Shown: positions 1 through 24,000, numbered from the stretch's first letter. The stretch is DNA of 24,000 bases from Abiotrophia defectiva ATCC 49176 (GCF_037041345.1 NZ_CP146287.1:358236-382235); one strand, 5' to 3'. Notes: a model not told the origin generated them from the letters alone. Translations and numbers: made by a program.

Positions 1-3000
1 GTGGATTATTTTTACGAGATTAAAGGGAAAGGCAATAATTCTGCCCACGTTCTGAACCCTTCTGACGCAACGCAAGAGAATGCGCTTAGAGCCTTAGAGC
101 ATATGTTCTATATCTTAGTCTGGTTCGTTATTAACTATATTGACGATGAAATTCAGGCTAATTTATTCGATGAATTTTTAGAACCTAAAGCTCAAGCCCT
201 CTACAAAACGGCTGAGCGGAAATTTATCTATGTTCAGACAGTTGACAATGCGAGTGGCCAATTTCCTGCTTTTGATGGGACTTACAAAGTTGGCGAAGGA
301 ACCGTTCCAGAAGACGAAGTCGAGGGAGACTGGAGTCCGAATAGTAGTTTCTTACGGAAGTTAGCTCCTAAAAGAATTAAACAATACATGAAGACCTCAG
401 GTCTGCCTTTTATGTTGGGATGGGTTGAACTAGCCTATCGCAAATCAGACAAGACCTGGTTTCATGATTATGATGTCCATAATGTATTGAGACGTTCTGG
501 AATTAAGCATGCGGAATTGCTAGAAGGCAATGAGTGGTTTGATACGGATTTGGAGACAGCTAAATCAGCTATTCAAGCGGTAAAGGCTGGACGTGAGTAT
601 ATCAATGAGTCGGTAGAAGAGAAGACGGCGGTCATTTTACGTCCAGAACAAGAAGAAGCAGTAGCGAAGACGCGTCAGGCCTTCAAGACTAAGGATACAA
701 TGCTATGGAATGCTAAAATGCGCTTTGGCAAGACATTAACGGCTCTTCAGTTGGTCAAAGAAGAAGGTTTCCAAAAAGTACTGATTATGACGCACCGTCC
801 CGTTGTGTCAGATTCTTGGTTCCAGGACTTTGAGAAAATGATGATGAGCCAAGAAGGTTATGAATATGGTTCAGTGACCCAAGGTGCCTCGCTTGAATCG
901 CTCAAAAAGGGAAACAAGCCTTTTGTTTATTTTGCTTCCATTCAGCTCTTACGTCATAATAATGCGCAAACGAACTTGAGCCAATTTGCTGAGGTAGACT
1001 GGGATCTTATTCTGATTGATGAAGCCCATGAAGGTACTCAGACTCAGCTAAGTGAACTTGTAATGGAGCAGTTAGTTAAGGATAAAACCAAAGTTCTGGA
1101 GCTATCTGGGACCCCCTTCAATCTCTTGGATAAATTTGAAGAAGATCAAGTTTATACCTGGGACTATACCATGGAACAGACGGCTAAGCTTAAGTGGGCG
1201 CTCGAGAAACCAAATGAACCAAACCCTTACGAGAAGTTACCGAAGGTATCTATGTATACCTTCGAGATGAAGAACAAGAAATTTTTAGATGAACGGAAAT
1301 CTTTTAATTTCAGAGAGTTCTTCCGCACAGATGATTCAGGTTGCCTGGTCCATAAGCAAGAGGTTCGAGCCTTTCTTGATAATATTACCAATCCTGATAG
1401 CCGAACAAACTATCCTTTTTCAACCAAGGCCTACCGAGAGGAGTTGCGGCACACACTCTGGTTATTACCAGGAGTTAAAGAAGCCAACGCCTTAGAAGAC
1501 CTTATGAAGCAGCATCCAATTTTTGGTAAGGAGTACCAAATTGTCAATGTAGTTCGAGGAAGCGAGCGGGATAGTGACGATGGTGTTGCCAATGAGGCGG
1601 ACTTAGAGAAAGTTCGCAAGGCGATAACAAAAGATCCCTCTCAGACAAGAACCATTACCCTAACGGTTCGAAAGTTAACAACTGGCGTCAATATTCCTGA
1701 ATGGACGGCTGTTATATTTTTATCCAATACTAATTCTGCTATGAACTATCTACAGGCCGCTTTTCGAGCTCAAACACCATTTTCTCATGAAAAATTAGGG
1801 ATGAAAAAACATTGTTATATCTTTGATTTTGCGCCAGATCGAGCGCTGACCGTGATGGCAGAGAGTGCGCAGATTAATTCTGGTGTGGGTAAGAAAAATA
1901 CACACCAGCAGAAGAAAGCCATGTCTCACCTCTTGAACTTCTTGCCAATTCTTGGTCAAGCAGACAATGGCATGAAAACTTATGATGTTGATCGCATGTT
2001 AACTCAATTGAAGAAGGTCTATGCGGAGAAAGCAGTACGGTCTGGATTTGAAGACGACAGTCTCTATAATGATAAGCTTCTAACCCTAACAGAGGGCGAT
2101 GCTAAGTTGTTCCAAGACTTGAACGCGATTGTAGGTAAAACGAGCAAACAGAAAACACCTAAGACGATTACGGTGAATGACAATGGTTTGACCGATGAAG
2201 AATACGAGAAGGGTGAGAAGGGCAAGAAAAAGAAAAAACGAGACCGCACCCCTGAAGAGCAAGAAGCAATTGAGAAGATTAAGAAGGCTAAGCAACAGCG
2301 CAAGACCATGATTTCAATCTTGCGAGGGGTATCAACTAAGATTCCTCTCATGATTTACGGGATGGATGTCGATATTCAAGATGATATCTCGATTGAGGAA
2401 TTCGTCAAGCAGGTGGATGATAAGTCTTGGAAGGAGTTTATGCCTAAGGGCTTTACTAAGGAGATGTTCCAGGAAATCACCCAATTCTATGATGCAGAAG
2501 TCTTCGTGGAAGCAGGCCGAATTATTCGACACCGCGCCAAAGAATTAGACGAGCTAGACTTTATTGAACGTGCTGAACGGATTGCTGAATTATTTGGTAG
2601 TTTCAAGAACCCCGACAAGGAAACAGTCCTCACCCCATGGCGTGTTGTCAACATGCAAATTGCCAAGGGAATAGGTGGCTTGAACTTCTACGATGATGAT
2701 TTCCATGTGATGACGGATGGCGGAAGGCCTAACCTACATTGGGTAGAGCGTGAAGTAACTAAGGAAATCTACCACCCAGATACTAAGATTATTGATATAA
2801 ACTCCAAGACTGGCCTATATCCTTTGCATGCTGCGATGAGCTTATACTATCAGGCCATGTTAGCGAATGAAGACAAGCGATTTATTGATAGACAGGTCTA
2901 TCAGTCGATTCTAAGCAGAAATATCTATGTTATTGCCCAAACCCCAATGGCCAAAACCATTACGGAGCGGACACTAGCAGGATACAGAGGTTATAAGACG

Positions 3001-4119
3001 AATGTGGTCTATATCCCGGGGCTAACGGACATCCTAAAGCAGGATATAGACAAGGGTAAAGAAAAAGTAGAGGAGGCGTTTGGTCACGTGAAATTTGATG
3101 TTGTGGTGGGGAATCCGCCGTATCAGGAAACTTTGGAGGGAACTAGTGATCGTCCTTTATATAATTACTTTATGGAATTATCATATAAAATAGCTGACAA
3201 AGTAATATTGATAACACCAGGAAGATTTTTGTTTAATGCGGGCAAAACTCCAAAGGCATGGAATGAAAAAATGCTGTCTGATGATAATCTAAAAGTTGTA
3301 TTTTACGAACAGGATTCTGCTAGTGTATTTCCAAATACGGACATTACAGGAGGCTTAGTAGTTTCATATAGAGAGAAAGGTAGCAAAATTGGCCCCATCA
3401 GAACGTTTACCACGTATGATGAGTTAAATAAAATTTTAAATAAAGTGATAAATTCAAATGACTTTCATTCTATTGTTTCAATTATATATTTACAGAATCG
3501 ATTTGATTTGAATCAACTTTTTGAAGATTATAATGAATTACGGCATGTAATTGGAAGCGAAGGGAAAGAAAGGCGGTTAACAACCTCCATATTTGAACAA
3601 GTGCCTATATTCTATGATAGTAGAGGTAATAAAGAAGATATTAAGGTGCTCGGTCTGATAAAAAATATCCGGAAGTATAAGTATATTAACAATAAATATA
3701 TCGAAGCCCACTCAAATCTAAAGAAATATAAAATAATTTTGCCAAAATCTAATGGGAGTGGAGCAATTGGAGATGCAGGGCCTACTCCTCTAATTGGAGA
3801 ACCCCTAATTGGAGAACCATTAACTGGATATACCCAATCATTTATTTCTTTTGGGGCATTTGAGAAGTTTATAGATGCTAGCAATTGTCTCAAATACATT
3901 AAAACAAAATTTGTAAGAGCTTTGTTAGGAACTTTGAAAATTACTCAAGACAATAATAAAGATACTTGGAAAAACGTTCCACTTCAAGACTTTTCATCCA
4001 ATTCCGATATCGATTGGTCACAATCTATTGCTGACATTGATCAACAACTCTACAAAAAGTATGGGTTGAGTGAGTCAGAGATTGCCTTCATTGAAGAAAA
4101 AGTCCAAGCGATGGAATAA
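1..4119 (+). CDS. SF2 helicase (ResIII/SNF2-like) fused to an Eco57I-family N6-adenine DNA methyltransferase-like domain. The true start lies upstream of the window.
   Basis: The frame is open from base 1, and the first residues (GNNSAHV...ENALRALEHMFYIL) look like the middle of a DUF4145-type domain. Helicase motifs are present: I (MRFGKTLTA), II (LILIDEAHEG), III (LSGTPF), V (TTGVNIPE) and VI (QAAFRAQT). Methyltransferase motif IV is FDVVVGNPPYQ at about nt 3100-3125. The stop codon TAA is at 4117-4119. Confidence 0.75.
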   Translation: MDYFYEIKGKGNNSAHVLNPSDATQENALRALEHMFYILVWFVINYIDDEIQANLFDEFLEPKAQALYKTAERKFIYVQTVDNASGQFPAFDGTYKVGEGTVPEDEVEGDWSPNSSFLRKLAPKRIKQYMKTSGLPFMLGWVELAYRKSDKTWFHDYDVHNVLRRSGIKHAELLEGNEWFDTDLETAKSAIQAVKAGREYINESVEEKTAVILRPEQEEAVAKTRQAFKTKDTMLWNAKMRFGKTLTALQLVKEEGFQKVLIMTHRPVVSDSWFQDFEKMMMSQEGYEYGSVTQGASLESLKKGNKPFVYFASIQLLRHNNAQTNLSQFAEVDWDLILIDEAHEGTQTQLSELVMEQLVKDKTKVLELSGTPFNLLDKFEEDQVYTWDYTMEQTAKLKWALEKPNEPNPYEKLPKVSMYTFEMKNKKFLDERKSFNFREFFRTDDSGCLVHKQEVRAFLDNITNPDSRTNYPFSTKAYREELRHTLWLLPGVKEANALEDLMKQHPIFGKEYQIVNVVRGSERDSDDGVANEADLEKVRKAITKDPSQTRTITLTVRKLTTGVNIPEWTAVIFLSNTNSAMNYLQAAFRAQTPFSHEKLGMKKHCYIFDFAPDRALTVMAESAQINSGVGKKNTHQQKKAMSHLLNFLPILGQADNGMKTYDVDRMLTQLKKVYAEKAVRSGFEDDSLYNDKLLTLTEGDAKLFQDLNAIVGKTSKQKTPKTITVNDNGLTDEEYEKGEKGKKKKKRDRTPEEQEAIEKIKKAKQQRKTMISILRGVSTKIPLMIYGMDVDIQDDISIEEFVKQVDDKSWKEFMPKGFTKEMFQEITQFYDAEVFVEAGRIIRHRAKELDELDFIERAERIAELFGSFKNPDKETVLTPWRVVNMQIAKGIGGLNFYDDDFHVMTDGGRPNLHWVEREVTKEIYHPDTKIIDINSKTGLYPLHAAMSLYYQAMLANEDKRFIDRQVYQSILSRNIYVIAQTPMAKTITERTLAGYRGYKTNVVYIPGLTDILKQDIDKGKEKVEEAFGHVKFDVVVGNPPYQETLEGTSDRPLYNYFMELSYKIADKVILITPGRFLFNAGKTPKAWNEKMLSDDNLKVVFYEQDSASVFPNTDITGGLVVSYREKGSKIGPIRTFTTYDELNKILNKVINSNDFHSIVSIIYLQNRFDLNQLFEDYNELRHVIGSEGKERRLTTSIFEQVPIFYDSRGNKEDIKVLGLIKNIRKYKYINNKYIEAHSNLKKYKIILPKSNGSGAIGDAGPTPLIGEPLIGEPLTGYTQSFISFGAFEKFIDASNCLKYIKTKFVRALLGTLKITQDNNKDTWKNVPLQDFSSNSDIDWSQSIADIDQQLYKKYGLSESEIAFIEEKVQAME

Positions 4120-13006: not shown

Positions 13007-13185
13007 GCACGTCGTGTTGGGAGGCAGCCACGTCGTATTGGAGGTAGCGATGTCTCGATGGACCTCCAACACGACGTGGCTCGGCAAGGAAGCGAGTATT
13101 TTGAGTCAAAAAGGGCGAAAAAGCGTGAGCCACGTCGTATTGGGAGGCAGCCATGTCTCGATGGAGGTCCAACGCGACGTGGCTC
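13007..13185. repeat. Palindromic intergenic repeat element (about 1.7 units), same family as 21101-21469
   Basis: It contains repeated 14-16-nt motifs CCACGTCG(T/C)(G/A)TTGG and their inverse CCAACRCGACGTGG. These form long hairpins, for example AGCCACGTCGTATTGGAGG...CCTCCAACACGACGTGGCT. The shared spacer is TATTTTGAGTCAAAAAGGGCGAAAAAGCG. Confidence 0.8.
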
Positions 13186-14270: not shown

Positions 14271-15365
14271 ATGAGTAAAAAAGTAGTATGTTTAATAGGT
14301 AATGGATTTGATTTAGCTCTGGGTCTCAGAACATCATATACGGATTTTCGAAACTTCATAGAGCTTAAGCATGGGAGTAAAATGTCCGAAAATCTGATTT
14401 ATAAAGCACTCGAAGAGCATACGGGGGGCAATTGGAGTGATTTAGAGAAAAAATTAGGGGAAATATTCAAGAAATCTACATGGGAAGGTATTTTTAAAAA
14501 CTCTGATTCTGTTTTAGATGGAGAGGAGTTACAGTTTTCAATTAATGAAGCAAGGGAAAATCTTATTGATGACTTAATAGAGCATCTCAAACAAGAAGAA
14601 AAAATACTAGGAAAAATTCAAATTGATGACGAAGTAAAAAATAACATGATCGAAGGTATACAACGCCTGTTTTCTCCGACGATTGAAAGAGATCAAGATA
14701 TTTTAAAAAATCATCAGAGCTTGTATGGAGAAGATATATATTTTTATACTATTAGCTTCAACTATACAGATTCTTTCTCTTATCTGTTTAATAAAATCGA
14801 GAGTAGTGATTATAGCATTGGGAGAAGTTTTTCTCGATACGCTACTCTCTATCCGCATGGGACTAGTGAAATAGGGACTACAATTGGAGTGAATGATGAG
14901 ACTCAGTTATTAGGTTATAAAGAAGGGGAAAGTGTTTTGGAGGCGGATACCGCTAAATTTATGATTAAACCTAGAAATAAAGAGCACGGGCAAGATAATC
15001 AATATGAGGATGCTCTACAACGAATCTCCATAGCTGATATCATCATAATATATGGGATGTCTTGCGGTGAGACGGACAAAGATTGGTGGGAGGCGATTGA
15101 AAAGAGACTTTTAGGGTATAAAAACTCAATCGCGATAGTTTTTAGCTATGAAACACTTCGGAGAACCCATAATAGCCAGGTAGAGAGAGTCCGGAATAGG
15201 GTCAGAAGTAAACTATGTAGTAGCTCAGAAAACATGGCTACTATAGGAAATCGAATTATTGTTGAATGTAGTAAGGACTTATTTTCCCATATTAAGAGTA
15301 AAACGGAGGAAGTACGTAAGCAAGTAGACGAAGTGCAAGTAACGAAAGAAGAGGATACTATTTGA
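14271..15365 (+). CDS. AbiH-like abortive-infection family protein
   Basis: The N-terminus VVCLIGNGFDLALGLRTSYTDFRNF and the later IIIIYGMSCGETDKDWWEAI match my memory of the AbiH (PF14253) pattern (GNGFDL..GL.TSY.DF and GhS....D..Y). The gene is AT-rich. It starts 50 nt after the upstream gene with no terminator between them. Confidence 0.65.
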   Translation: MSKKVVCLIGNGFDLALGLRTSYTDFRNFIELKHGSKMSENLIYKALEEHTGGNWSDLEKKLGEIFKKSTWEGIFKNSDSVLDGEELQFSINEARENLIDDLIEHLKQEEKILGKIQIDDEVKNNMIEGIQRLFSPTIERDQDILKNHQSLYGEDIYFYTISFNYTDSFSYLFNKIESSDYSIGRSFSRYATLYPHGTSEIGTTIGVNDETQLLGYKEGESVLEADTAKFMIKPRNKEHGQDNQYEDALQRISIADIIIIYGMSCGETDKDWWEAIEKRLLGYKNSIAIVFSYETLRRTHNSQVERVRNRVRSKLCSSSENMATIGNRIIVECSKDLFSHIKSKTEEVRKQVDEVQVTKEEDTI

Positions 15366-16888: not shown

Positions 16889-17152
16889 ATGGGATTTTTG
16901 GATAATGCAAAGAATGAAAGTAGCTATTCAGTAGCGTCTGGTAGAGATTTGAATTATGTGGTTTTACAGGTAACCCTGAAGGAAAAATTTATTGGGACGG
17001 GTTCTGGAAATCTAGCGGAGCTAGAGGAAGTCATTAACAGACAAGCTGCAAAAGGATATAGACTTCATACTATTGCGACAAGTAATGGTGGCAGCAAAGG
17101 CTTTATGGGCGGAGATAGAATCCAGGCTACACTAGTTTTTGAGTCGCTTTAG
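16889..17152 (+). CDS. Small DUF4177-like protein
   Basis: The start is ATG at 16889 (SD GGAGGG), giving 87 aa. The pattern YVVLQV...GNLAELEEVINRQAAKGYRLHTIA...ATLVFE resembles DUF4177 (WEYKVV...LN.LG.EGWELVSV...VFKR). Confidence 0.5.
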   Translation: MGFLDNAKNESSYSVASGRDLNYVVLQVTLKEKFIGTGSGNLAELEEVINRQAAKGYRLHTIATSNGGSKGFMGGDRIQATLVFESL

Positions 17153-17285
17153 CGTTTACTAGAATGAATAAGGTAAAGGGATGAAGGTATGCCAGAAAAT
17201 AACCTAGATATACTGAGCATGCGACATGTCAAGCATGATAAATGATTGTATCATGCGCGCAGGGGACGTGTTAAGTATCCTATAG

Positions 17286-17316
17286 AAGAGGGCCGTAAAA
17301 GGCTCTTTTTATTTTT
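17286..17316 (+). terminator. Intrinsic terminator in the ORF-free gap
   Basis: AAGAGGGCC-gtaaaa-GGCTCTTTT forms the stem, followed by a long T-run (TTTTTATTTTT). Confidence 0.5.
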
Positions 17317-17712
17317 GGAATAAGACACTACCATTTGAGGGACATGGCGCAATCATATTCGATCAAATCAGGCCAACAGAATTGACAGTTTCTGTCTCAA
17401 TCGTTCGCTTGTCTACCTTTAAAACTCTCTCGTCTCATACTGTAATGTGCACACGCTCATTTGATGATTCAAATACCAACAGCCCATCACTAAGCCATTC
17501 CTTAGACCATAATATTGCTCAAAATGAATTTTGTTGCAAATTATGAAATCATTTAGTGAAGGGCTTTCTTTCTAGAATTTCTGGGCGTATAATATAACTA
17601 TAGTAAGTTAAGGCGGATTCTCTCTCTCGTTTGGCTCCATGGTTAAGCAGTTAGGTAGAAGTCGTCTTTTTGCTATATCAAGATAAATTCTATAAGAAAG
17701 GAGAGTTACTTT

Positions 17713-18018
17713 ATGAGAGAGATGCAGCAAATTCAGATCAGCTACCAATACGATCATGAGCGTCTCTATGAGGCACTTAAGCGGAGAGGCATGACCGAGC
17801 GTGCGTTGGCAGAGAAAATCTATTGTTCGCCCGCTACGGTCTCTCGCATCTTCAATGGTTGTGGCCGTCTAAGCATTGAGACCATCATTATGGTCTGTCT
17901 AGCTATGAAACTAACAGTTGAAGAGCAGCTTGAGATTTTCTATTTCTCTTGTATGGGTATCTTGCACCATTTAGGGGTGAGTATGGGCGATACCCAAGAC
18001 ACTAAATTCGACATATGA
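17713..18018 (+). CDS. XRE-family helix-turn-helix regulator
   Basis: The protein is 101 aa. The HTH is MTERALAEKIYCSPATVSRIFNG. The SD is AAGGAGAG. This is the first gene of the GC-rich module. Confidence 0.7.
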   Translation: MREMQQIQISYQYDHERLYEALKRRGMTERALAEKIYCSPATVSRIFNGCGRLSIETIIMVCLAMKLTVEEQLEIFYFSCMGILHHLGVSMGDTQDTKFDI

Positions 18019-18185
18019 CATCAGGAGGCACAGTTTATAAAGTTGTTATATTGGCTCAATATAATTACTCGAGTTGTGGTTAACCACAACTCAGAAAAGA
18101 ATCGTGACTGGACAAGAAAGTTATACATAAGAATAGATAATGTTGTTGAATAGGTTTTTATGACTATTTGGAAGGAAGAAAAACC

Positions 18186-19349
18186 ATGAAATTCGATGAT
18201 TTAGAAAATTTAAATTTAGATAGCATCAGGGAGCAGATTTTAGCCTATGCGGTTCAGCTTACTCAGTCCTATTGGGAGATTGGTCGGCGGTTGCATTATG
18301 CCAAGCAGTCTTTGTTGTCAGAAGATGGATTTCTACCATGGTTAGAGACGCTTTATATCGATTATCCCGAGGCTAATCGCATGATGTATGTAGCCAAGAA
18401 TTTACCTAAGATGAAGTGCTACGAGCATCTAGGCTTATCGCTACTTTATCTGATCGCAACTATCCCCGAGGAACATCGTCAGAAGATTTATACTTTACCT
18501 TCAGGCAAATGTAAGTACCTGCATCAAATGTCTCAGTTAGAACTTCGGACCGTTAAGCGGCTGTTGAAAGCGGGACAGTTGGAGTCTTGCTTCCAAGGAG
18601 ATAGTCAGTTACAAGTTGACTGTCAAGAGGTGAAGAAGGAGACACAGGATGCCGTCTCGCCTGAAGCAAGTCAGGCTAGAGCACCGCAAGCTCCTGCTAC
18701 CAATCAAGCTACTACGCAACAGGTTCCAACCAGCCCTCAAGCTGACGGGCTTCAGCCTGACGCCCAATCGGACGATGCTATACACCAATCTAGACAGCCC
18801 CAGACTAAGTTGCTTACCCCAAGTCAAGATCTCAAGTCCAACCCCCTAGCTCCCAAGCTAGCCGAGGCGGAGGCGACTAACCAGCGCCTAAGAGAATCCC
18901 TTAAGCAGGCTAATGCCAAGTATCAGGAAGACCTACAATCTATCGAGGAGCGCTACCGTTATCTCAAGCGATTCCGGGAGGGTTTATCGCATTTCGCTAA
19001 TCGGTCCACGACCTTCATTCCGGATTTGGAGGGTCTTAATCGCATCATCGCCTTCAGTCATGAGATTGACCACTTGCTAGTTAAGCTGGCGCCTATGCGC
19101 TATATCGATGACTTTAAGGCGATTCAGAATCAGGTCATGGTCGACCATTACCTCAAGCAGATTGACCGAGTAGATGACTGGGTCCAATCCATGCGTGCTA
19201 GCATCCATCAAGCCCAAGCAGTAGGCCGGCGAGATGTGACATCTGAGGGGGCTGATGGCCAAGCTCGGCCTCAACAAGCAAGCTATGGCCCTAGCGAACC
19301 TAAGACTAACTTCTCTAACTCAACACAAGAAAATCAAGCCGTTGCATAA
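18186..19349 (+). CDS. DUF3102-like protein with a Q/P/A-rich low-complexity linker and a C-terminal coiled-coil region
   Basis: I prefer ATG at 18186. The N-terminus SYWEIGRRLHYAKQSLLSEDGFLPWLETL..YPEANRMMYVAKN fits the DUF3102 pattern (IG..L..AK..L.HG.W..WL). The low-complexity stretch is QARAPQAPATNQATTQQVPTSPQADGLQPDAQ. Confidence 0.55.
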   Translation: MKFDDLENLNLDSIREQILAYAVQLTQSYWEIGRRLHYAKQSLLSEDGFLPWLETLYIDYPEANRMMYVAKNLPKMKCYEHLGLSLLYLIATIPEEHRQKIYTLPSGKCKYLHQMSQLELRTVKRLLKAGQLESCFQGDSQLQVDCQEVKKETQDAVSPEASQARAPQAPATNQATTQQVPTSPQADGLQPDAQSDDAIHQSRQPQTKLLTPSQDLKSNPLAPKLAEAEATNQRLRESLKQANAKYQEDLQSIEERYRYLKRFREGLSHFANRSTTFIPDLEGLNRIIAFSHEIDHLLVKLAPMRYIDDFKAIQNQVMVDHYLKQIDRVDDWVQSMRASIHQAQAVGRRDVTSEGADGQARPQQASYGPSEPKTNFSNSTQENQAVA

Positions 19350-19366
19350 TATAAGGAGGAACTACC

Positions 19367-19810
19367 ATGGAAACAGCAACACCAAGTACATTGAACAATC
19401 AAATGACTAGCCTAGAAGCCCAAGTCCAAGCTCAACACCAGTTGCTGGGGCAGATTAACAGCCATCTCCAAGTTTTAACGACTCTCTTAGAGCACCAACC
19501 CCTGTCACCTGAGGCCACTTATGCCCTAACGCGTTTGCGCCGTCATGAGATCCACCAACGCCTAGGGGACAAGGACCGCTTACTAACGGCTCGACGTCCG
19601 GAACTGGTGCGTCTGGTCTATCGGACGGCACGCCTGGCCTTCCTCAGTCATTTTAGCTTATCCAGCTATGGGCATCTACCACAAGAGCGATATGAAGCTG
19701 CTGTCAGCTTCTGGAAGGAATGGAAGGTCCCGGTCGACTTGCAGGCTAAGCTAGACCAAGCCTATAAGGACTTGGCTCAAGACCGGCCTCAACTCCATGC
19801 AGTTGCCTAA
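19367..19810 (+). CDS. Hypothetical phage-type protein, possibly with an ORF6C-like C-terminal domain
   Basis: The protein is 147 aa. The SD is AAGGAGGA. The C-terminal segment LVRLVYRTARLAFLSHFSLSSYGHLPQERYEAAVSFWKEW resembles ORF6C domains of phage antirepressor-type proteins. Confidence 0.45.
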   Translation: METATPSTLNNQMTSLEAQVQAQHQLLGQINSHLQVLTTLLEHQPLSPEATYALTRLRRHEIHQRLGDKDRLLTARRPELVRLVYRTARLAFLSHFSLSSYGHLPQERYEAAVSFWKEWKVPVDLQAKLDQAYKDLAQDRPQLHAVA

Positions 19811-19833
19811 CTAGGGATAAGGAGGGAACAGCT

Positions 19834-20367
19834 ATGACTTCCGACCATTATCCCTTGGACCAGGAGCAACTCCTGGCCCGCTACCGACTTTTGTTACATC
19901 ATGTCTTGCACCAATACCATCTCTTGGCTGAGGATCAAGACTATGACGATTACTACAATGAACTTTACCTACACCTTGTCCGCCTAGCCCGCGACTTCGA
20001 TGGGGACGCGCTCAGCGAGTCTGACCGCTTCCGATTCGTGGGCTATGCTCAGCGGGGCCTGAGTTGGCATCTGGGTCAACTCCTAGCCAAACGATCACGT
20101 CAGGCTCAAGGCCTGATTGGCAATCAGAAGGTCCTGCATTTTGCCGAACAGGCTGGCGCCAGTCGCCCGCCTATGGACGACTTGGTCAACTCGCTGCTGC
20201 TGTCGCAAGTCTTGTCGCCAACCGATTATCATTTCCTCTGTGTGGCCCAGAACGAGCAACTCTCGCTTGGGGCCAAATGCCAAGAGCTGGGCATATGTAA
20301 GAATACCTACTATGCCCGCCTAAAGCGCCTACGCCAGACCCTGCAAGCAAGCGACTGGTCGGCTTAA
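19834..20367 (+). CDS. Sigma-70-like / ArpU-type transcriptional regulator (candidate late-gene activator)
   Basis: The protein is 177 aa. The region-2-like stretch is YYNELYLHLVRLARDF. The C-terminal region-4-type HTH is LSLGAKCQELGICKNTYYARLKRLRQTL. The SD is AAGGAGGG. Confidence 0.6.
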   Translation: MTSDHYPLDQEQLLARYRLLLHHVLHQYHLLAEDQDYDDYYNELYLHLVRLARDFDGDALSESDRFRFVGYAQRGLSWHLGQLLAKRSRQAQGLIGNQKVLHFAEQAGASRPPMDDLVNSLLLSQVLSPTDYHFLCVAQNEQLSLGAKCQELGICKNTYYARLKRLRQTLQASDWSA

Positions 20368-20456
20368 GTGCCTACGCCAGACCTTGAAAGCTAGCGATTG
20401 GTCGGCTTGAGTGCCTGCGTCAGACACTGCAAGCCAGTGACTGGTCAGCTTGAGTG
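20328..20456 (+). repeat. Three tandem 43-nt units, plus a partial fourth, overlapping the sigma-like gene's 3' end
   Basis: The units lie at 20328-20370, 20371-20413 and 20414-20456. Each contains a 39-nt segment reading LRQTL(Q/K)ASDWSA plus a stop codon, followed by GTGC. Confidence 0.9.
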
Positions 20457-20478
20457 CCTTGCTCAGCTCTTTTTCTCC

Positions 20479-20506
20479 AGCTCCCGCAGAGGGGGCTTTT
20501 TATTTT
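20479..20506 (+). terminator. Intrinsic terminator after the repeat stack
   Basis: AGCTCCC-gcaga-GGGGGCT forms a stem with one G-U pair, followed by TTTTTATTTT. Confidence 0.65.
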
Positions 20507-20608
20507 GCAGAAAAATAAATTTTTAGGGCTGACTTGGGCATGAGGAGGGGGCTTAATTCTTTTTAAGTATGTAACGTTACAAGAAACTAGTTCAAGGAGT
20601 GATTCATT

Positions 20609-20806
20609 ATGGCACGATCATATGTTAAGGGTATCCTCAAGTTCAAGTCCCTAGATGAGAACAAGAAGGCGGAGAATGTTTCCATGCCCAACCTAGTAGA
20701 GAACGCTAGCGCCGAGGACATCAAGTCCGTGCGCGACGCTATTGCTACCCTGGTTGAGCATCCCATCACCGAGACCCAGGTGACCGAGGTCTTCAGCGTC
20801 AACTAG
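20609..20806 (+). CDS. DUF1659-like small protein
   Basis: The protein is 65 aa. The SD is AAGGAG. The pattern LKFKSLDENKK...NLVENASAEDIKSVRDAIATL resembles DUF1659. It is paired with a DUF2922-like gene, as is usual for this family. Confidence 0.5.
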   Translation: MARSYVKGILKFKSLDENKKAENVSMPNLVENASAEDIKSVRDAIATLVEHPITETQVTEVFSVN

Positions 20807-20848
20807 TCGGCTTGTTGAGTAGAGCAGTGAATTAAGGAGGAACCCATC

Positions 20849-21088
20849 ATGGCTAACAAAACCATTAAGACTTTTGAGATGAATTTCGCGACCGCAGACG
20901 GCAAGTCTAAGAAGATTAGCCTGCGCCACGCCAAGGCAGACATCACCAAGGACCAGGCCAAAGCCGCCATGGCCACCATCGTAGGCAAGGACATCTTCAC
21001 CAAGGACGCCGTCGACCAGTTCGCCAAGGAGAAGACCGCCAACTACGTCACCCGCACCGTAGAGGAAGTCTACAAGGCTGAGGCTTAG
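20849..21088 (+). CDS. DUF2922-like small protein
   Basis: The protein is 79 aa. The SD is AAGGAGGA. The pattern KTFEMNFATADGKSKKISLRHAKADITKDQAKAAM resembles DUF2922. Confidence 0.5.
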   Translation: MANKTIKTFEMNFATADGKSKKISLRHAKADITKDQAKAAMATIVGKDIFTKDAVDQFAKEKTANYVTRTVEEVYKAEA

Positions 21089-21100
21089 GGTGAGTTGGGC

Positions 21101-21469
21101 GCCCCGCCATGTCGTGTTGGAAGAGCGCCATGTCGCATTGGGCCTCCAACGCGACGTGGCTAAGGCGGCACGCCCTATTTTAGCTCAGAAAATGGCGAAA
21201 AGCGCCCGCCACGTCGTGTTGGGCGTGAGCCACGTCGCTTTGGGCTTCCAACGCGACATGGCTAAGGCGGTACGCCCTCTTTTAACTCAGAAAATGGCGA
21301 AAAAGCGCCCGCCACGTCGTGTTGGGAGTGAGCCACGTCGCATTGGGGCTCCAATACGACATGGCTGCGGCAGGAAACTCCCTTTTAGCCTGAAAAATGG
21401 CGAAAGAGCACCCGCCACGTCGTGTTGGGCGTGAGCCACGTCGCATTGGGCTTCCAACGCGACATGGCT
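21101..21469. repeat. Tandem palindromic repeat element, about 3.6 units of 102-103 nt
   Basis: The motif CCAYGTCGTGTTGG starts at 21107, 21209, 21312 and 21415. Each unit has two direct motifs (CCACGTCGTGTTGG, AGCCACGTCGCATTGG) and one inverted motif (CCAACGCGACATGGCT), plus the spacer TTTTAGCTCAGAAAATGGCGAAAAGCG. Confidence 0.85.
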
Positions 21470-21494
21470 CAGCCAAAGACACCTAGTATCTTAC

Positions 21495-21611
21495 GAGCCA
21501 GTCCATAGATAGGGGGAACGGTGGACTGGCTCGGTCGCTAGGTGGCGAAAACCGGGCATTTTACTGGATTTGCGACAAGCTAGTCCATGGATAGCTAGAA
21601 CAATGGACTGG
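21495..21611 (+). promoter_or_regulatory. Two related stem-loops upstream of the lysis genes (function unknown)
   Basis: Hairpin 1 is GAGCCAGTCCA-N16-TGGACTGGCTC (21495-21532). Hairpin 2 is CTAGTCCAT-N14-ATGGACTGG (21580-21611). Both share AGTCCAT.GATAG....AAC..TGGACT. Confidence 0.4.
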
Positions 21612-21659
21612 CGCCAGCCACTCAGCCACCCCATCATTATTCAGAAAGGAGCCTTCATC

Positions 21660-22019
21660 ATGACATGGCTACAGCTTACGACGCTGGCGTCCGGCCTAGT
21701 CGCGGGCGCGACCCTCCTGGGCAAGTTGGTGCGCCTGATTGCGGCGATCCAGACGCTGATTCTTCGAATCGAGCGCATGCAGACGGACTTAGCTAGCACG
21801 CAGAGTAACCTGCAAGGCGCGCAAGCCAGTCTTGCGACAACTCAGGATAACTTACATGCCACGCAAAATGACCTAGCCACCACCCAAGCCAAGCTCCAGG
21901 TCACTCAGACCGACCTAGGTGCCACCCAGACTCAAGTCACAACAGTTGCACAGGACCTGTCCCGCGTCCGCCAACGTCTGGGACGTCTGGAAGACAAGCG
22001 GGTCCACAGTCTGGCTTGA
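21660..22019 (+). CDS. N-terminal TM protein with eight perfect heptads (L-x-x-T/A-Q-x-x); lysis-module accessory protein in the XhlA-like position
   Basis: I prefer ATG at 21660 (SD AAAGGAG 8 nt upstream). The TM segment is WLQLTTLASGLVAGATLLGKLV. The heptads LASTQSN LQGAQAS LATTQDN LHATQND LATTQAK LQVTQTD LGATQTQ VTTVAQD span 21789-21956. Confidence 0.55.
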   Translation: MTWLQLTTLASGLVAGATLLGKLVRLIAAIQTLILRIERMQTDLASTQSNLQGAQASLATTQDNLHATQNDLATTQAKLQVTQTDLGATQTQVTTVAQDLSRVRQRLGRLEDKRVHSLA

Positions 22020-22067
22020 CGCAGCCAGGCACTTCTATCTCTAAGCAAAGAAAGCGAGGCAGTCATT

Positions 22068-22301
22068 ATGCATCTTCCCACTAGTCGCAAGGCCTATACG
22101 ACGATTCAATGGATGGCACTGATCCTGATTCCGGCGCTAGCGGTCCTAGTCCAAGGTCTAGCCGAACTCTATGCCTGGCCCGACCCCTGGCCTCGTCGCC
22201 TGGTTGGCACCCTCAATCTAGTCGGCGTCTTCCTAGGGGCGCTACTTCAAGGCTGGCATTATGGCCGACGCAAGACTAGGAGCAAGGCAAAGTCCGCTTA
22301 G
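22068..22301 (+). CDS. Holin (two TM segments and a basic C-terminal tail)
   Basis: The protein is 77 aa. The TM segments are WMALILIPALAVLVQGLA and LVGTLNLVGVFLGALLQ. The tail is GRRKTRSKAKSA. The gene lies immediately upstream of the endolysin. Confidence 0.6.
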   Translation: MHLPTSRKAYTTIQWMALILIPALAVLVQGLAELYAWPDPWPRRLVGTLNLVGVFLGALLQGWHYGRRKTRSKAKSA

Positions 22302-22377
22302 GCTCTCCGCTCACGCCCTTAGCCACATAGCCCGCACTCCAAACCCATCTCATCCCATCCAAAGGAGGAACCCACTC

Positions 22378-23058
22378 ATGAAGCCACAAATTCAACAACT
22401 CCTATCCAAGGCCCAAGCCTACCTAGGCGTCCAAGGCGGAAGTCCCACCCATCAGGGCCTCGTTGATGCCTATAACGCTGTCCAACCCCTGCCGGTCGGC
22501 TACGCAGTTACCTACAGCGACGACTGGTGCGATGTCTTCGTTACCGTCATGGGAGACCAGGCCGGCATCGCTCATCTGATTGGGCGCGAATGCGGCGTGC
22601 CTCGTCATCTGACCTGGTGCCAAGAGCAGGGCATCTGGCTAGGCCATGTCTGGCCTCAAGCTGGCGATCTGATTTTCTTCGATTTTGGGGGTGGGCCTGC
22701 ATCTCACATCGGCATTGTGGAAAGTGTGGACGGCGACAGCGAAACCGTCAATACTATTGAGGGTAACTGGCTCAACCAGGTTGTCCGCCGTCATTATGCT
22801 AGTGACGACTGGCGCATCCTAGGTTATGCCCGGCCTCAATATGATGCGAGGGCTGGGAGTGTAGCCACTGGCAGTGAAGCTGGGGGAGCTAATCATCCGA
22901 ATGGCTGTGTCGATGCAGCTAGCGACCTAGATGAAGTGGTCTGGTCAGTTATCCGAGGTGACTGGGGCAATGGACAGGAACGAATCGACCGGCTAACTGA
23001 TGCGGGTTATGATGCGCAAGTTCTGCAGGAATTGGTGAATGAGAAATTGGCAAGTTAG
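22378..23058 (+). CDS. Endolysin: N-terminal CHAP domain plus a C-terminal CW_7 (Cpl-7-like) cell-wall-binding motif
   Basis: The start is ATG at 22378 (SD AAAGGAGGA). The CHAP catalytic Cys context is YSDDWCDVFV and the His context is ASHIGIVESV...NTIEGN. The C-terminal VIRGDWGNGQERIDRLTDAGYDAQVLQELVN matches the CW_7 repeat consensus. Confidence 0.8.
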   Translation: MKPQIQQLLSKAQAYLGVQGGSPTHQGLVDAYNAVQPLPVGYAVTYSDDWCDVFVTVMGDQAGIAHLIGRECGVPRHLTWCQEQGIWLGHVWPQAGDLIFFDFGGGPASHIGIVESVDGDSETVNTIEGNWLNQVVRRHYASDDWRILGYARPQYDARAGSVATGSEAGGANHPNGCVDAASDLDEVVWSVIRGDWGNGQERIDRLTDAGYDAQVLQELVNEKLAS

Positions 23059-23069
23059 AGGATAAGAGA

Positions 23070-23096
23070 AAAAGCGCCGGGAGGGCGCTTTTTTTG
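23070..23096 (+). terminator. Intrinsic terminator after the endolysin
   Basis: AGCGCC-gggag-GGCGCT forms the stem, followed by TTTTTTTG. Confidence 0.8.
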
Positions 23097-23104
23097 TTAT
23101 AATA

Positions 23105-23133
23105 TTGAGAATTTTAGGCATTTATGGTATAAT
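23105..23133 (+). promoter_or_regulatory. Near-consensus promoter in the AT-rich CRISPR leader
   Basis: -35 TTGAGA is at 23105-23110. After a 17-nt spacer comes the extended -10 TGGTATAAT at 23125-23133. This is about 90 nt upstream of the first repeat. Confidence 0.6.
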
Positions 23134-23223
23134 AAAGAGTAGTAATTAAGGGAGTATCTGATACTAGAAAACCCTTGAAATCTATATATTGTATATCGTG
23201 TCTAGGGTGACACAAGATATAGA

Positions 23224-23473
23224 GTTCAGATACCTTAATCCCCGAGAGGGGACGGAAACTACCGCCGTTCAGTTCATCATCAATCGGCGTTAAGTCGTTC
23301 AGATACCTTAATCCCCGAGAGGGGACGGAAATATGTATAATCTTTGGTTTTCTTATTGAATTGGTCTGTTCAGATACCTCATTCCCCGCGAGGGGACGGA
23401 AACTTCTAAAGCGTACTGCGATTGTGGTTTTTTTAACATTTAGATACCTCATTCCCCGCAAGGGGTCAAAAAG
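23224..23473 (+). CRISPR. Mini-CRISPR array with 4 repeats (36 nt) and 3 spacers (37, 35 and 34 nt); the repeat is type III-A-like
   Basis: The repeats start at 23224, 23297, 23368 and 23438. R1 is GTTCAGATACCTTAATCCCCGAGAGGGGACGGAAAC. R2 is identical except the last base is T. R3 has 3 substitutions. R4 is degenerate (ATTTAGATACCTCATTCCCCGCAAGGGGTCAAAAAG), which puts the trailer on the right and the leader on the left. The 3' half CCCCGAGAGGGGACGGAAAC closely matches the S. thermophilus CRISPR2 (III-A) repeat as I remember it. Confidence 0.85.
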
Positions 23474-23608
23474 GCACAACCATAACTTAGTACTAACCCT
23501 AGGTTGGCCTTATATAAACAAAACAACGCTAGCGTCAACTAGCGTTGTTTTTATAGTATTTTATTCGTATAATATGACTGTATCCTACCATCAAAAGGAG
23601 CCCTCACC

Positions 23609-24000
23609 GTGTCCAATTATTTTCAATCGCAACTTACTAAATCTCTCCAGCATGGCTTCATTCATCGCCATGACTATCCGGATGGCAACTATGCCCCGCA
23701 GATTCTCATTAATAAGCCGGCCAAGGGGGCCCATGTTCTCACCGCTATTCAAGATGAGCTTCTTAAGTGTGATCGTTTCTACTTCTCTGTGGCCTTTATC
23801 TCCAAGGCTGGGATTGCCATGCTTAAGACTCAACTCTCGGATCTGGCTGATCGCGGGGTAGAAGGCTACATCCTGATTTCGCCCTATCTAGGTTTCAATG
23901 ATCCGGATGCTATGCGGGAGCTGCTCAAGCTATCCAATGTTCAGGTGCGGCTGACCCGTGAGGAGCTCAATATGCATGCCAAGTGCTATCTCTTCCAACA
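23609..24000 (+). CDS. N-terminal PLD-like (HKD) nuclease domain of a probable DUF3427-type helicase; the 3' end lies outside the window
   Basis: This ORF is not in the supplied track because it runs off the edge. The start is GTG at 23609 (SD AAAGGAG 8 nt upstream). My translation is MSNYFQSQLTKSLQHGFIHRHD...YAPQILINKP...RFYFSVAFISKAGIAMLKTQLSDLADRGVEGYILISPYLGFNDP...NMHAKCYLFQ. It contains the HxK motif (HAK). Confidence 0.65.
   Translation, partial: MSNYFQSQLTKSLQHGFIHRHDYPDGNYAPQILINKPAKGAHVLTAIQDELLKCDRFYFSVAFISKAGIAMLKTQLSDLADRGVEGYILISPYLGFNDPDAMRELLKLSNVQVRLTREELNMHAKCYLFQ

What the first reader, a model, noticed from the sequence alone, without database searches (positions are those of the whole stretch)
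20328..20470. Three stacked copies of the sigma-like gene's 3' end, each encoding the same peptide plus a stop, differing almost only at synonymous sites
**What the sequence shows**
- The last 39 nt of the sigma/ArpU-like gene (20329-20367) read cta cgc cag acc ctg caa gca agc gac tgg tcg gct taa, which translates as LRQTLQASDWSA*.
- This segment is followed by GTGC and then repeated twice with a 43-nt period.
- Unit 2 (20372-20410) reads LRQTLKASDWSA*.
- Unit 3 (20415-20453) reads LRQTLQASDWSA*.
- A partial fourth unit (gtgc ctt gct cag) follows.

**Pattern of differences**
- Unit 1 versus unit 3 has 7 differences. Six are third-position synonymous changes (cta/ctg, cgc/cgt, acc/aca, gca/gcc, agc/agt, tcg/tca) and one is stop-to-stop (taa/tga).
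- Unit 1 versus unit 2 has 5 differences: 3 synonymous, 1 conservative (Q to K) and 1 stop-to-stop.
- Only about a quarter of random single-base changes are silent. This pattern is therefore very unlikely without protein-level purifying selection on every unit. Each unit appears to have served as a real gene end.

**Interpretation (inference)**
- This may be a fossil stack of displaced gene ends, left by repeated site-specific integration or module exchange targeting the 3' end of this regulator gene. In that case it marks a recombination hotspot or att-like site.
- A less likely alternative is recoding. The 43-nt period equals 14 codons plus 1 nt, so a +1 shift at each stop would append (K/E)CLRQTL(Q/K)ASDWSA repeats.
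Basis: seen in the sequence. Interest (0 to 1): 0.78.

Follow-up and report, generated by a model that had tools for sequence, protein, structure and literature searches.

The report
Copy-variable tandem repeat of gene end
The last 43 bases of a sigma-factor-like gene in the oral bacterium Abiotrophia are repeated one to four times depending on the strain; only the first copy is read, and the extra copies are displaced gene ends shuffled in by ordinary recombination, so this is a real but ordinary repeat polymorphism.

Summary
Window 20329-20457 holds three head-to-tail 43-nt units (TRF: period 43, 3.2 copies). Each unit encodes LRQTL(Q/K)ASDWSA plus a stop, and the units differ almost only at silent sites (7 random changes leaving the peptide intact: 0 of 50,000 simulations).

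I parsed the array in 56 related Abiotrophia loci, which gave 31 distinct arrays. Copy number is 1 (18 arrays), 2 (5), 3 (7) or 4 (1). Flanks are always collinear and nothing is ever inserted between units.

- First units never carry a premature stop (0 of 28). Downstream units do (4 of 19), and some carry multiple missense changes.
- 13 of the 17 silent variants in downstream units also occur in functional first units of other strains.
- Variants private to downstream units look neutral (4 silent against 9 missense or nonsense).
- The locus recombines heavily. One relative is identical to the window for at least 3.5 kb up to unit 1, then 5-13% diverged.

Best reading: a minisatellite (VNTR) spanning the stop codon of a sigma-70-family gene. 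The extra units lie in the 3' UTR before the terminator. They are alleles of the gene end brought together by recombination, and they decay once displaced. Site-specific integration and recoding are not supported. Interest is low to moderate.

The parts
19834..20367 (+). Sigma-70-family (ECF/FliA-like) regulator gene, 177 aa. Its last 12 codons plus stop form unit 1.
   Evidence: ORF. TIGR02937 sigma70-ECF E=7.8e-5 over residues 11-171. A profile of 27 remote homologues hits FliA sigma-factor structures at E=3.5e-11, and members match Sigma70_r2 and r4.
20317..20330 (+). Left copy of a 14-nt imperfect direct repeat (CGCCTAAAGCGCCT) that matches each unit's end (CGGCTTRAGTGCCT). It is the likely slippage substrate that set the 43-nt period.
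   Evidence: the repeat finder family D1: 57-nt copies at 43-nt spacing starting at 20317. Also present in single-unit alleles.
20329..20371 (+). Unit 1: LRQTLQASDWSA, TAA, then GTGC. This is the translated gene end.
20372..20414 (+). Unit 2: would read LRQTLKASDWSA then TGA in the +1 frame. It lies in the 3' UTR and is not in frame with the gene.
20415..20457 (+). Unit 3: would read LRQTLQASDWSA then TGA in the +2 frame. It lies in the 3' UTR.
20458..20469 (+). Weak partial unit (CTTGCTCAGCTC). It is present after the last unit in all alleles, including single-unit ones.
20479..20507 (+). Intrinsic terminator (7-bp stem, 5-nt loop, T run) that closes the sigma transcript after the array.
   Evidence: Conserved in all relatives.
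20609..20806 (+). DUF1659 protein (SroA-like). Downstream neighbour, context only.
   Evidence: Pfam PF07872 E=1.6e-8. S. aureus SroA: bioRxiv 10.1101/2022.10.19.512975.
20849..21088 (+). DUF2922 protein (SroB-like). Context only.
   Evidence: Pfam PF11148 E=7.6e-20.

Best explanation
This is a copy-number-variable tandem duplication (minisatellite/VNTR) of the last 43 nt of a sigma-70-family regulator gene. The gene sits in a small holin-endolysin island of Abiotrophia.

- Only unit 1 is translated. Units 2 and 3 are non-coding and sit in the 3' UTR between the working stop codon and the intrinsic terminator (inferred).
- The duplication most likely began by slippage or unequal exchange between the 14-nt imperfect direct repeat that brackets the last 43 nt (inferred).
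- Every unit carries its own stop codon, and any in-register exchange between units rebuilds an intact gene end. Gains and losses of units therefore do not alter the protein and are tolerated.
- The silent-site pattern does not come from selection on each unit where it now sits. The strains recombine heavily, so the units of one array are different alleles of the functional gene end drawn from the population. Those alleles were filtered by selection while they served as unit 1. Once displaced downstream they decay neutrally.
For: **Copy-number polymorphism with fixed flanks**
- 31 distinct arrays from 56 loci have 1 (18), 2 (5), 3 (7) or 4 (1) units.
- Flanks are collinear in all loci.

**First versus downstream units**
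- First units: 24 of 28 distinct sequences encode the intact peptide, and none has a premature stop.
- Downstream units: 11 of 19 are intact and 4 have premature stops (Fisher P = 0.045 and 0.022).
- Without the long-read assemblies, premature stops are 0 of 26 against 3 of 14, P = 0.037.

**Origin of the silent variants**
- 13 of 17 synonymous variants in downstream units also occur in first units of other strains.
- Variants private to downstream units are 4 synonymous against 9 missense or nonsense, which is 31% silent. The neutral expectation is 25-34%.
- Two downstream units are identical to functional single-unit ends elsewhere.
- 18 of 20 downstream units are closer to another strain's first unit than to their own.
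- Units within an array differ about as much as random first-unit alleles do (5.6 vs 4.1 differences).

**Recombination**
- Window vs L002: 0 mismatches over at least 3.5 kb up to unit 1, then 5-13% divergence.
- L040 is a mosaic of tracts a few hundred nt long.
- Upstream and downstream distances are uncorrelated, r = -0.004.

**Other**
- The flanking 14-nt direct repeat is present.
- The terminator lies directly after the array.
- The array RNA has no significant structure, z = -0.49, and no Rfam family matches it.
- A second repeat 0.7 kb downstream (103-nt period) also varies widely in copy number, so the region is slippage-prone.
Against: - The first-versus-downstream contrasts are only modestly significant (P about 0.02-0.12). 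They rest on distinct sequences that are not phylogenetically independent.
- Rare variants in first units are also mostly missense. The clearest signal of relaxation is therefore the four nonsense changes and the multi-hit units.
- Four synonymous variants remain private to downstream units, so weak constraint in place cannot be excluded.
- Most relatives are metagenome contigs. Some recombination joints at a repeat could be assembly chimeras, although the L002 form was recovered at identical length from two samples.
- There are no expression data. That units 2 and 3 are transcribed but untranslated is inferred.
Confidence: 0.75

Rival explanations
1. The repeated units are a functional 3'-UTR or DNA element. 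They could be binding or protection sites that tune stability of the sigma mRNA, possibly through the adjacent SroA/SroB-like DUF1659/DUF2922 pair. They could also set the distance to the terminator. Copy number would then act as a tuning knob.
For: - The array lies in the 3' UTR directly before the terminator.
- It sits upstream of a DUF1659/DUF2922 pair.
- In S. aureus the homologous pair is driven by the ECF sigma factor SigS, and SroA stabilises sigS mRNA (bioRxiv 10.1101/2022.10.19.512975).
- Multi-unit arrays persist in many strains.
Against: - Single-unit alleles are the commonest class (18 of 31).
- The array shows no RNA structure signal (z = -0.49) and no Rfam match.
- The unit motif occurs nowhere else in the window.
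- The three-base periodicity of variation points to a coding-derived constraint, not a binding-site one.
- The nearest remote homologue examined has no repeat at its 3' end.
Confidence: 0.1
2. The array is a selected recombination linker. It would be a stretch where crossovers between a regulatory module (upstream) and an effector or lysis module (downstream) always regenerate an intact gene, so it favours module exchange.
For: - A sharp joint lies inside unit 1 between the window and L002.
- Upstream and downstream distances are uncorrelated.
Against: - Breakpoints are just as frequent at neighbouring 200-nt boundaries.
- Correlations decay everywhere in the locus.
- Both flanks are conserved homologous DNA in all strains, so no special linker is needed for exchange.
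Confidence: 0.07
3. The array is a fossil stack of att-like sites left by repeated site-specific integration into the 3' end of the gene, with each element bringing a replacement gene end.
For: Displaced gene ends lying downstream of a working end resemble what integrative elements leave at tRNA, tmRNA or protein-gene 3' ends (established knowledge, not tested here).
Against: - Units are exactly abutting, with a 43-nt period and nothing between them in any of 56 loci.
- No integrase was found in the island.
- There is no other copy of the 43-mer in the window and none in IMG/VR.
Confidence: 0.03
4. The downstream units are translated by recoding. A +1 shift at each stop codon (period = 14 codons + 1) would append (K/E)C-LRQTL(Q/K)ASDWSA repeats, so the downstream units would be under selection in place.
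For: - The period is 3n+1, so each next unit lies in the +1 frame.
- Many downstream units keep the peptide intact (11 of 19).
Against: - The P-site codon (GCT or GCC) cannot re-pair in the +1 frame, and no Shine-Dalgarno-like stimulator lies upstream (inference from the known prfB mechanism).
- The stop codon varies among TAA, TGA and TAG. The spacer varies among GTGC, GTAC, GCGC, GTTC, GGGC and GCGT, which would change residues in the +1 frame.
- 4 of 19 downstream units have in-frame stops.
- Most alleles have only one unit.
Confidence: 0.03

Closest known systems
Bacterial minisatellites / VNTR loci such as mycobacterial MIRU-VNTRs
   Same: - Head-to-tail units of tens of bases.
- Copy number polymorphic among strains.
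- Conserved flanks.
- Located at gene boundaries within operons. MIRUs carry short ORFs that overlap flanking stop and start codons (PMC12548453; otherwise my own knowledge).
   Different: - Here the unit is a duplicate of the gene's own last 12 codons plus stop, not a dispersed element.
- It occurs at a single locus.
- The downstream units have no start codon in the peptide frame and are not coupled ORFs.
Gene 3'-end duplications left by integrative elements (att sites in tRNA, tmRNA or protein-gene ends)
   Same: A working gene end is followed by displaced copies of the same end.
   Different: There is no element, no integrase and no spacing between copies. Copy number changes without any insertion.
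Programmed +1 frameshifting at a stop codon (prfB/RF2 type)
   Same: The geometry would allow a +1 shift at each stop to read the next unit in frame.
   Different: There is no slippery codon and no stimulator. The stop and spacer vary, and downstream units contain premature stops.
Diversity-generating retroelement VR/TR pairs
   Same: A copy of the gene's 3' end lies just downstream of it.
   Different: - No reverse transcriptase was found among the neighbouring genes scanned.
- Differences are not adenine-specific (A/G, C/T, C/A, G/A).
- Changes are silent rather than diversifying.
S. aureus SigS-SroAB circuit (ECF sigma with a DUF1659/DUF2922 pair)
   Same: The gene context matches: a sigma-70-family factor followed by a DUF1659 and a DUF2922 gene.
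   Different: The S. aureus paper, as read here, does not mention a tandem repeat at the sigS 3' end. Here the trio is joined to a Dp-1-type holin and a CHAP/CW_7 endolysin.

Membership tests
VNTR / minisatellite (tandem duplication by slippage or unequal exchange) | Head-to-tail copies with a constant period and no intervening sequence | tested here: met
   TRF period 43, 3.2 copies, 0% indels. All arrays are exact multiples of 43 nt.
VNTR / minisatellite (tandem duplication by slippage or unequal exchange) | Copy number polymorphic among related strains, with conserved flanks | tested here: met
   1, 2, 3 or 4 units in 18, 5, 7 and 1 distinct arrays. Flanks are collinear.
VNTR / minisatellite (tandem duplication by slippage or unequal exchange) | Short direct repeat bracketing the unit in the single-copy state (slippage substrate) | tested here: met
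   A 14-nt imperfect direct repeat, 10 of 14 identical, lies 43 nt apart.
att-site stack from site-specific integration | Integrase or mobile element adjacent to or between copies in at least some genomes | tested here: not met
   None in 56 loci. Neighbouring genes carry no integrase domains.
att-site stack from site-specific integration | A matching copy of the site on an element elsewhere (attP) | tested here: not met
   No further copy in the window or in IMG/VR viral contigs. Whole genomes were not searched for the 43-mer itself.
Programmed +1 frameshift at a stop codon | Slippery P-site codon able to re-pair in the +1 frame, with a conserved stop context | tested here: not met
   GCT/GCC followed by TAA, TGA or TAG. 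The spacer is variable.
Programmed +1 frameshift at a stop codon | Downstream frame kept open and conserved | tested here: not met
   4 of 19 distinct downstream units have premature stops. 18 of 31 arrays have no second unit.
Programmed +1 frameshift at a stop codon | Extended protein product detected | not testable with these tools
   Needs proteomics or ribosome profiling.
Diversity-generating retroelement | Reverse transcriptase nearby and adenine-specific VR/TR differences | tested here: not met
   No RT domain among the scanned ORFs. Differences involve all bases.
Sigma-70 family (the gene that carries the repeat) | Region 2 and region 4 (HTH) homology over the full length | tested here: met
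   TIGR02937 E=7.8e-5 over residues 11-171, below the curated cut-off. The family profile hits FliA structures at E=3.5e-11. Members match Sigma70_r2 and r4. No ArpU-specific match was seen.

The most novel reading that the evidence does not exclude
The stacked gene ends are a functional 3'-UTR module. Extra units would act as decoy or protective sites that change the decay of the sigma-factor mRNA, possibly through the adjacent SroA/SroB-like DUF1659/DUF2922 proteins. Slippage-driven copy-number change would then be a heritable dial on a sigma-controlled holin-endolysin (lysis) cassette.
Probability: 0.05. Interest if true: 0.6.

Novelty: new member of a known kind. Interest (0 to 1): 0.25.

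Why it matters
- It is a clean worked example of how a strong signature of purifying selection (silent-only differences) can appear in non-coding DNA. The copies are alleles that were filtered while they were coding and were then stacked by recombination. This is a caution for dN/dS-style inference on repeats and for calling recoding or att sites from sequence alone.
- The 43-nt array, and the 103-nt array nearby, could serve as strain-typing markers for oral Abiotrophia.
- The surrounding module has not been characterised and may merit study in its own right. It comprises a sigma factor, an SroAB-like pair, a holin and an endolysin, with no phage structural genes.

Tried and rejected
- blastn of 19300-21600 against 50,697 phage records gave no match.
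- Protein-based and pattern-based scans of IMG/VR gave no relatives.
- An Rfam scan of 17000-24000 found nothing on the array.
- RNA folding of the array was no better than shuffles, z = -0.49.
- A search for dispersed copies of unit sub-motifs as possible operators found none.
- A DGR was considered and rejected: no RT, and differences are not adenine-specific.
- An independent ORF per unit was considered and rejected. No start codon lies in the peptide frame apart from a chance TTG in window unit 2 with no ribosome-binding site.
- A test for a breakpoint hotspot at the array was inconclusive. Few pairs were informative and the array was no different from neighbouring boundaries.
- An alignment-based search for distant sigma relatives in IMG/VR failed because no block was conserved enough.
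- The closest remote homologue I could fetch (P0007, 35% identity) has no tandem repeat at its 3' end. Stacking is therefore not shown to be a family trait, on one data point.

Full report
**1. The observation**

- The 177-aa ORF 19834-20367 ends LRQTLQASDWSA-TAA.
- It is followed by GTGC and two more 43-nt units, at 20372-20414 and 20415-20457. These would read LRQTLKASDWSA-TGA and LRQTLQASDWSA-TGA.
- A weak partial unit follows at 20458-20469.
- Tandem Repeats Finder reports 20323-20459, period 43, 3.2 copies, 84% matches, no indels, score 183.
- Unit patterns match nowhere else in the 24-kb window, with 0 expected by chance.

The differences are also as listed.
- Unit 1 vs unit 3: six synonymous third-position changes plus TAA/TGA.
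- Unit 1 vs unit 2: three synonymous changes, Q>K, and TAA/TGA.

In a Monte Carlo test, 7 random substitutions never left the peptide unchanged (0 of 50,000). Five substitutions gave at most one amino-acid change with P = 0.024. The silent bias is therefore real. Because 43 = 14 codons + 1, the three units lie in three different reading frames.

**2. What the gene and the locus are**

The gene has no Pfam hit above threshold, but several lines place it in the sigma-70 family.
- It aligns end to end with TIGR02937 (sigma70-ECF, E = 7.8e-5).
- An exhaustive search found 72 remote homologues of similar length.
- A profile of 27 of them hits FliA sigma-factor structures at E = 3.5e-11. Members match Sigma70_r2 and Sigma70_r4.
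- The repeated peptide is the tail just after the region-4 helix-turn-helix.
- I found no ArpU-specific evidence.

The gene sits in a 5.5-kb island (about 17.7-23.1 kb, GC 51-58% against 34-45% upstream). The island contains, in order:
- an Xre-type HTH gene;
- a 393-aa protein;
- an ORF6C protein;
- the sigma gene;
- DUF1659 and DUF2922 genes;
- a 103-nt tandem repeat;
- a coiled-coil protein;
- a Dp-1-type holin;
- a CHAP/CW_7 endolysin.

Upstream are ordinary chromosomal and defence genes: an Eco57I-like restriction-modification enzyme, PTS components, peptidases, an aminotransferase and AbiH. The window holds no phage structural genes. Two genome-collection hits name the host as uncultured Abiotrophia sp.. 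In S. aureus a DUF1659/DUF2922 pair (SroA/SroB) is the main target of the ECF sigma factor SigS, and SroA stabilises sigS mRNA (bioRxiv 10.1101/2022.10.19.512975). An intrinsic terminator (20479-20497 plus a T run) follows the array directly.

**3. Relatives**

I collected 56 loci in which the array could be parsed, giving 31 distinct arrays. They came from look-ups of exact proteins from the window, the genome scan and one pattern scan of metagenome contigs.
- Copy number is 1 in 18 distinct arrays, 2 in 5, 3 in 7 and 4 in 1 (L034).
- All arrays are exact multiples of 43 nt.
- The flanks are collinear in every locus, and nothing is ever inserted between or beside units.
- The window's own 3-unit array recurs identically in several independent assemblies.
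- Junction-spanning k-mers cannot arise from single-unit genomes, so the arrays are not assembly artefacts (inference).

**4. Is each unit under selection where it sits?**

Pooled over distinct units:

| | First units | Downstream units |
|---|---|---|
| Synonymous variants | 15 | 17 |
| Missense variants | 4 | 5 |
| Nonsense variants | 0 | 4 |
| Intact peptide | 24 of 28 | 11 of 19 |
| Premature stop | 0 of 28 | 4 of 19 |

- Before the last loci were added (first units 13 synonymous and 3 missense; downstream units 17 synonymous of 26), both classes were far more silent than the neutral expectation of 25-34% (binomial P between 1e-5 and 1e-3).
- The two classes differ in intactness. Fisher P = 0.045 for intact peptides and P = 0.022 for premature stops (L012 U2, L006/L063 U3, L020 U3, L048 U2).
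- One downstream lineage carries three missense changes (LCQTLQVSNWSA).
- Excluding long-read assemblies that may contain errors, premature stops are 0 of 26 against 3 of 14, P = 0.037.
- 13 of the 17 silent downstream variants also segregate in functional first units of other strains. This number rose as more first units were sampled.
- Variants private to downstream units are 4 silent against 9 missense or nonsense, which is the neutral proportion.
- Two downstream units are identical to single-unit gene ends elsewhere. 18 of 20 downstream units are closer to another strain's first unit than to their own.
- Units within an array differ about as much as random first-unit alleles (5.6 vs 4.1 differences).

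The silent-site signature is therefore inherited from time spent as a working gene end. It is not maintained in place.

**5. How different alleles come to be stacked**

The locus is a recombination mosaic.
- The window and L002 are identical for at least 3.5 kb up to position ~20348 inside unit 1. They differ by 5-13% from there on, and L002 has one unit.
- L040 alternates identical and diverged tracts of a few hundred bases.
- Upstream and downstream distances are uncorrelated, r = -0.004.
- Breakpoints are no denser at the array than at neighbouring 200-nt boundaries, though few pairs were informative. I do not claim a special hotspot.

In single-unit alleles the last 43 nt are already bracketed by a 14-nt imperfect direct repeat (CGCCTNAAGCGCCT ... 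CGGCTTRAGTGCCT). This is a classical substrate for slippage or unequal exchange and explains the period (inference). Once two units exist, ordinary in-register recombination with other alleles replaces unit 1 together with the upstream flank, or the last unit together with the downstream flank. That makes arrays heterogeneous (inference). A second repeat 0.7 kb downstream (103-nt period) also varies from roughly 1.5 to 9 units among the same strains, independently of the 43-nt copy number. This fits a generally slippage-prone region.

**6. Rivals**

- **Integration or att stack:** no element, no integrase and no second copy of the site was found.
- **Recoding by +1 shifts:**
  - There is no slippery codon (inference from the prfB mechanism).
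  - The stop codon and spacer vary.
  - Downstream units contain in-frame stops, and most alleles have a single unit.
  - A frameshifted allele (P0003/L006) does end in unit 2 with ...QTLQASDWSA. That is a geometric consequence of the 3n+1 period in a gene whose HTH is destroyed.
- **Functional RNA or DNA element:** there is no structure signal, no Rfam family, no dispersed motif and no repeat in the nearest remote homologue. A role of 3'-UTR length or content in sigma mRNA stability cannot be excluded without experiments. The SroA precedent makes this the most interesting residual possibility.
- **DGR:** there is no reverse transcriptase, and the differences are not adenine-specific.

**7. 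Verdict**

The feature is real, statistically solid and polymorphic in the population, but its explanation is conventional. It is a VNTR that spans a stop codon. Its spare units are displaced alleles of the gene end, assembled by recombination and slowly decaying. It is a new member of a known kind. Interest is low to moderate (0.25). I put confidence in the main explanation at about 0.75.

Noticed in passing
window 21103-21469 (also 13007-13182): There is a second tandem repeat: period 103 nt (also 3n+1), 3.6 copies, between the DUF2922 gene and the coiled-coil/holin genes. Each unit holds two direct copies and one inverted copy of a 14-mer, CCACGTCGYRTTGG, forming hairpins. The same 14-mer occurs 5 times in an unrelated intergenic region at 13007-13182, so it looks like a dispersed REP-like element. 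The array spans about 125 to 890 nt in related strains, independently of the 43-nt copy number. The 114-aa ORF called across it (21090-21434) is probably spurious.
   Followed up: partly
window 23224-23472: A CRISPR-like mini-array lies just downstream of the endolysin. It has four 35-nt repeats (GTTCAGATACCTTAATCCCCGAGAGGGGACGGAAA; the last two are degenerate) at 70-73-nt spacing. It gives weak sub-threshold Rfam CRISPR-DR hits. No cas genes were seen within the window. ORFs 23114-23479 (-) and 23361-23861 (+) overlap it and may be spurious.
   Followed up: partly
window 17713-23058: A compact island of higher GC (51-58% against 34-45% upstream) holds an Xre HTH gene, a 393-aa protein, an ORF6C protein, a sigma-70-family factor, a DUF1659/DUF2922 (SroA/SroB-like) pair, a coiled-coil protein, a Dp-1 holin and a CHAP/CW_7 endolysin. 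There are no phage structural genes. Exact copies of the DUF1659 and DUF2922 proteins are indexed in more than 1,100 blocks of the assembly collection, including a 2.26-Mb contig. This could be a sigma-controlled lysis cassette or a prophage remnant. It was not investigated further.
   Followed up: partly
L006 2635-3210 (protein P0003); compare window 20230-20410: An allele with a 1-nt deletion in TTATCATTTCC shifts frame, destroys the HTH, reads through unit 1 out of frame and ends in frame in unit 2 with ...QTLQASDWSA. This gives a 191-aa call. It is probably a pseudogene. Several long-read (BNJ*) contigs also show homopolymer indels at the same spot, which are likely sequencing errors.
   Followed up: partly
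window 1-4119 and 14271-15365; L053-L060 downstream; L040/L062 upstream: The island is embedded in a variable defence-gene neighbourhood. The window has an Eco57I-like helicase/methylase and AbiH. Relatives carry GmrSD, FRG-domain, DUF2971 and DNA methylase/NgoFVII-like genes at the same flanks.
   Followed up: no
window 20349 vs L002 ~3515; window 20000-20600 vs L040: Sharp recombination joints are present. L002 is identical to the window for at least 3.5 kb upstream and 5-13% diverged from unit 1 onward. L040 alternates identical and diverged tracts of a few hundred bases. This indicates very frequent homologous exchange among Abiotrophia strains at this locus.
   Followed up: yes
window 20489-20498 and 20545-20554: GAGGGGGCTT occurs twice, once in the terminator stem and once 56 nt downstream. 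The second copy lies in the highly conserved stretch ahead of the DUF1659 gene (…AAGTATGTAACGTTAC…), which may hold the sigma-dependent promoter. This was not tested.
   Followed up: no
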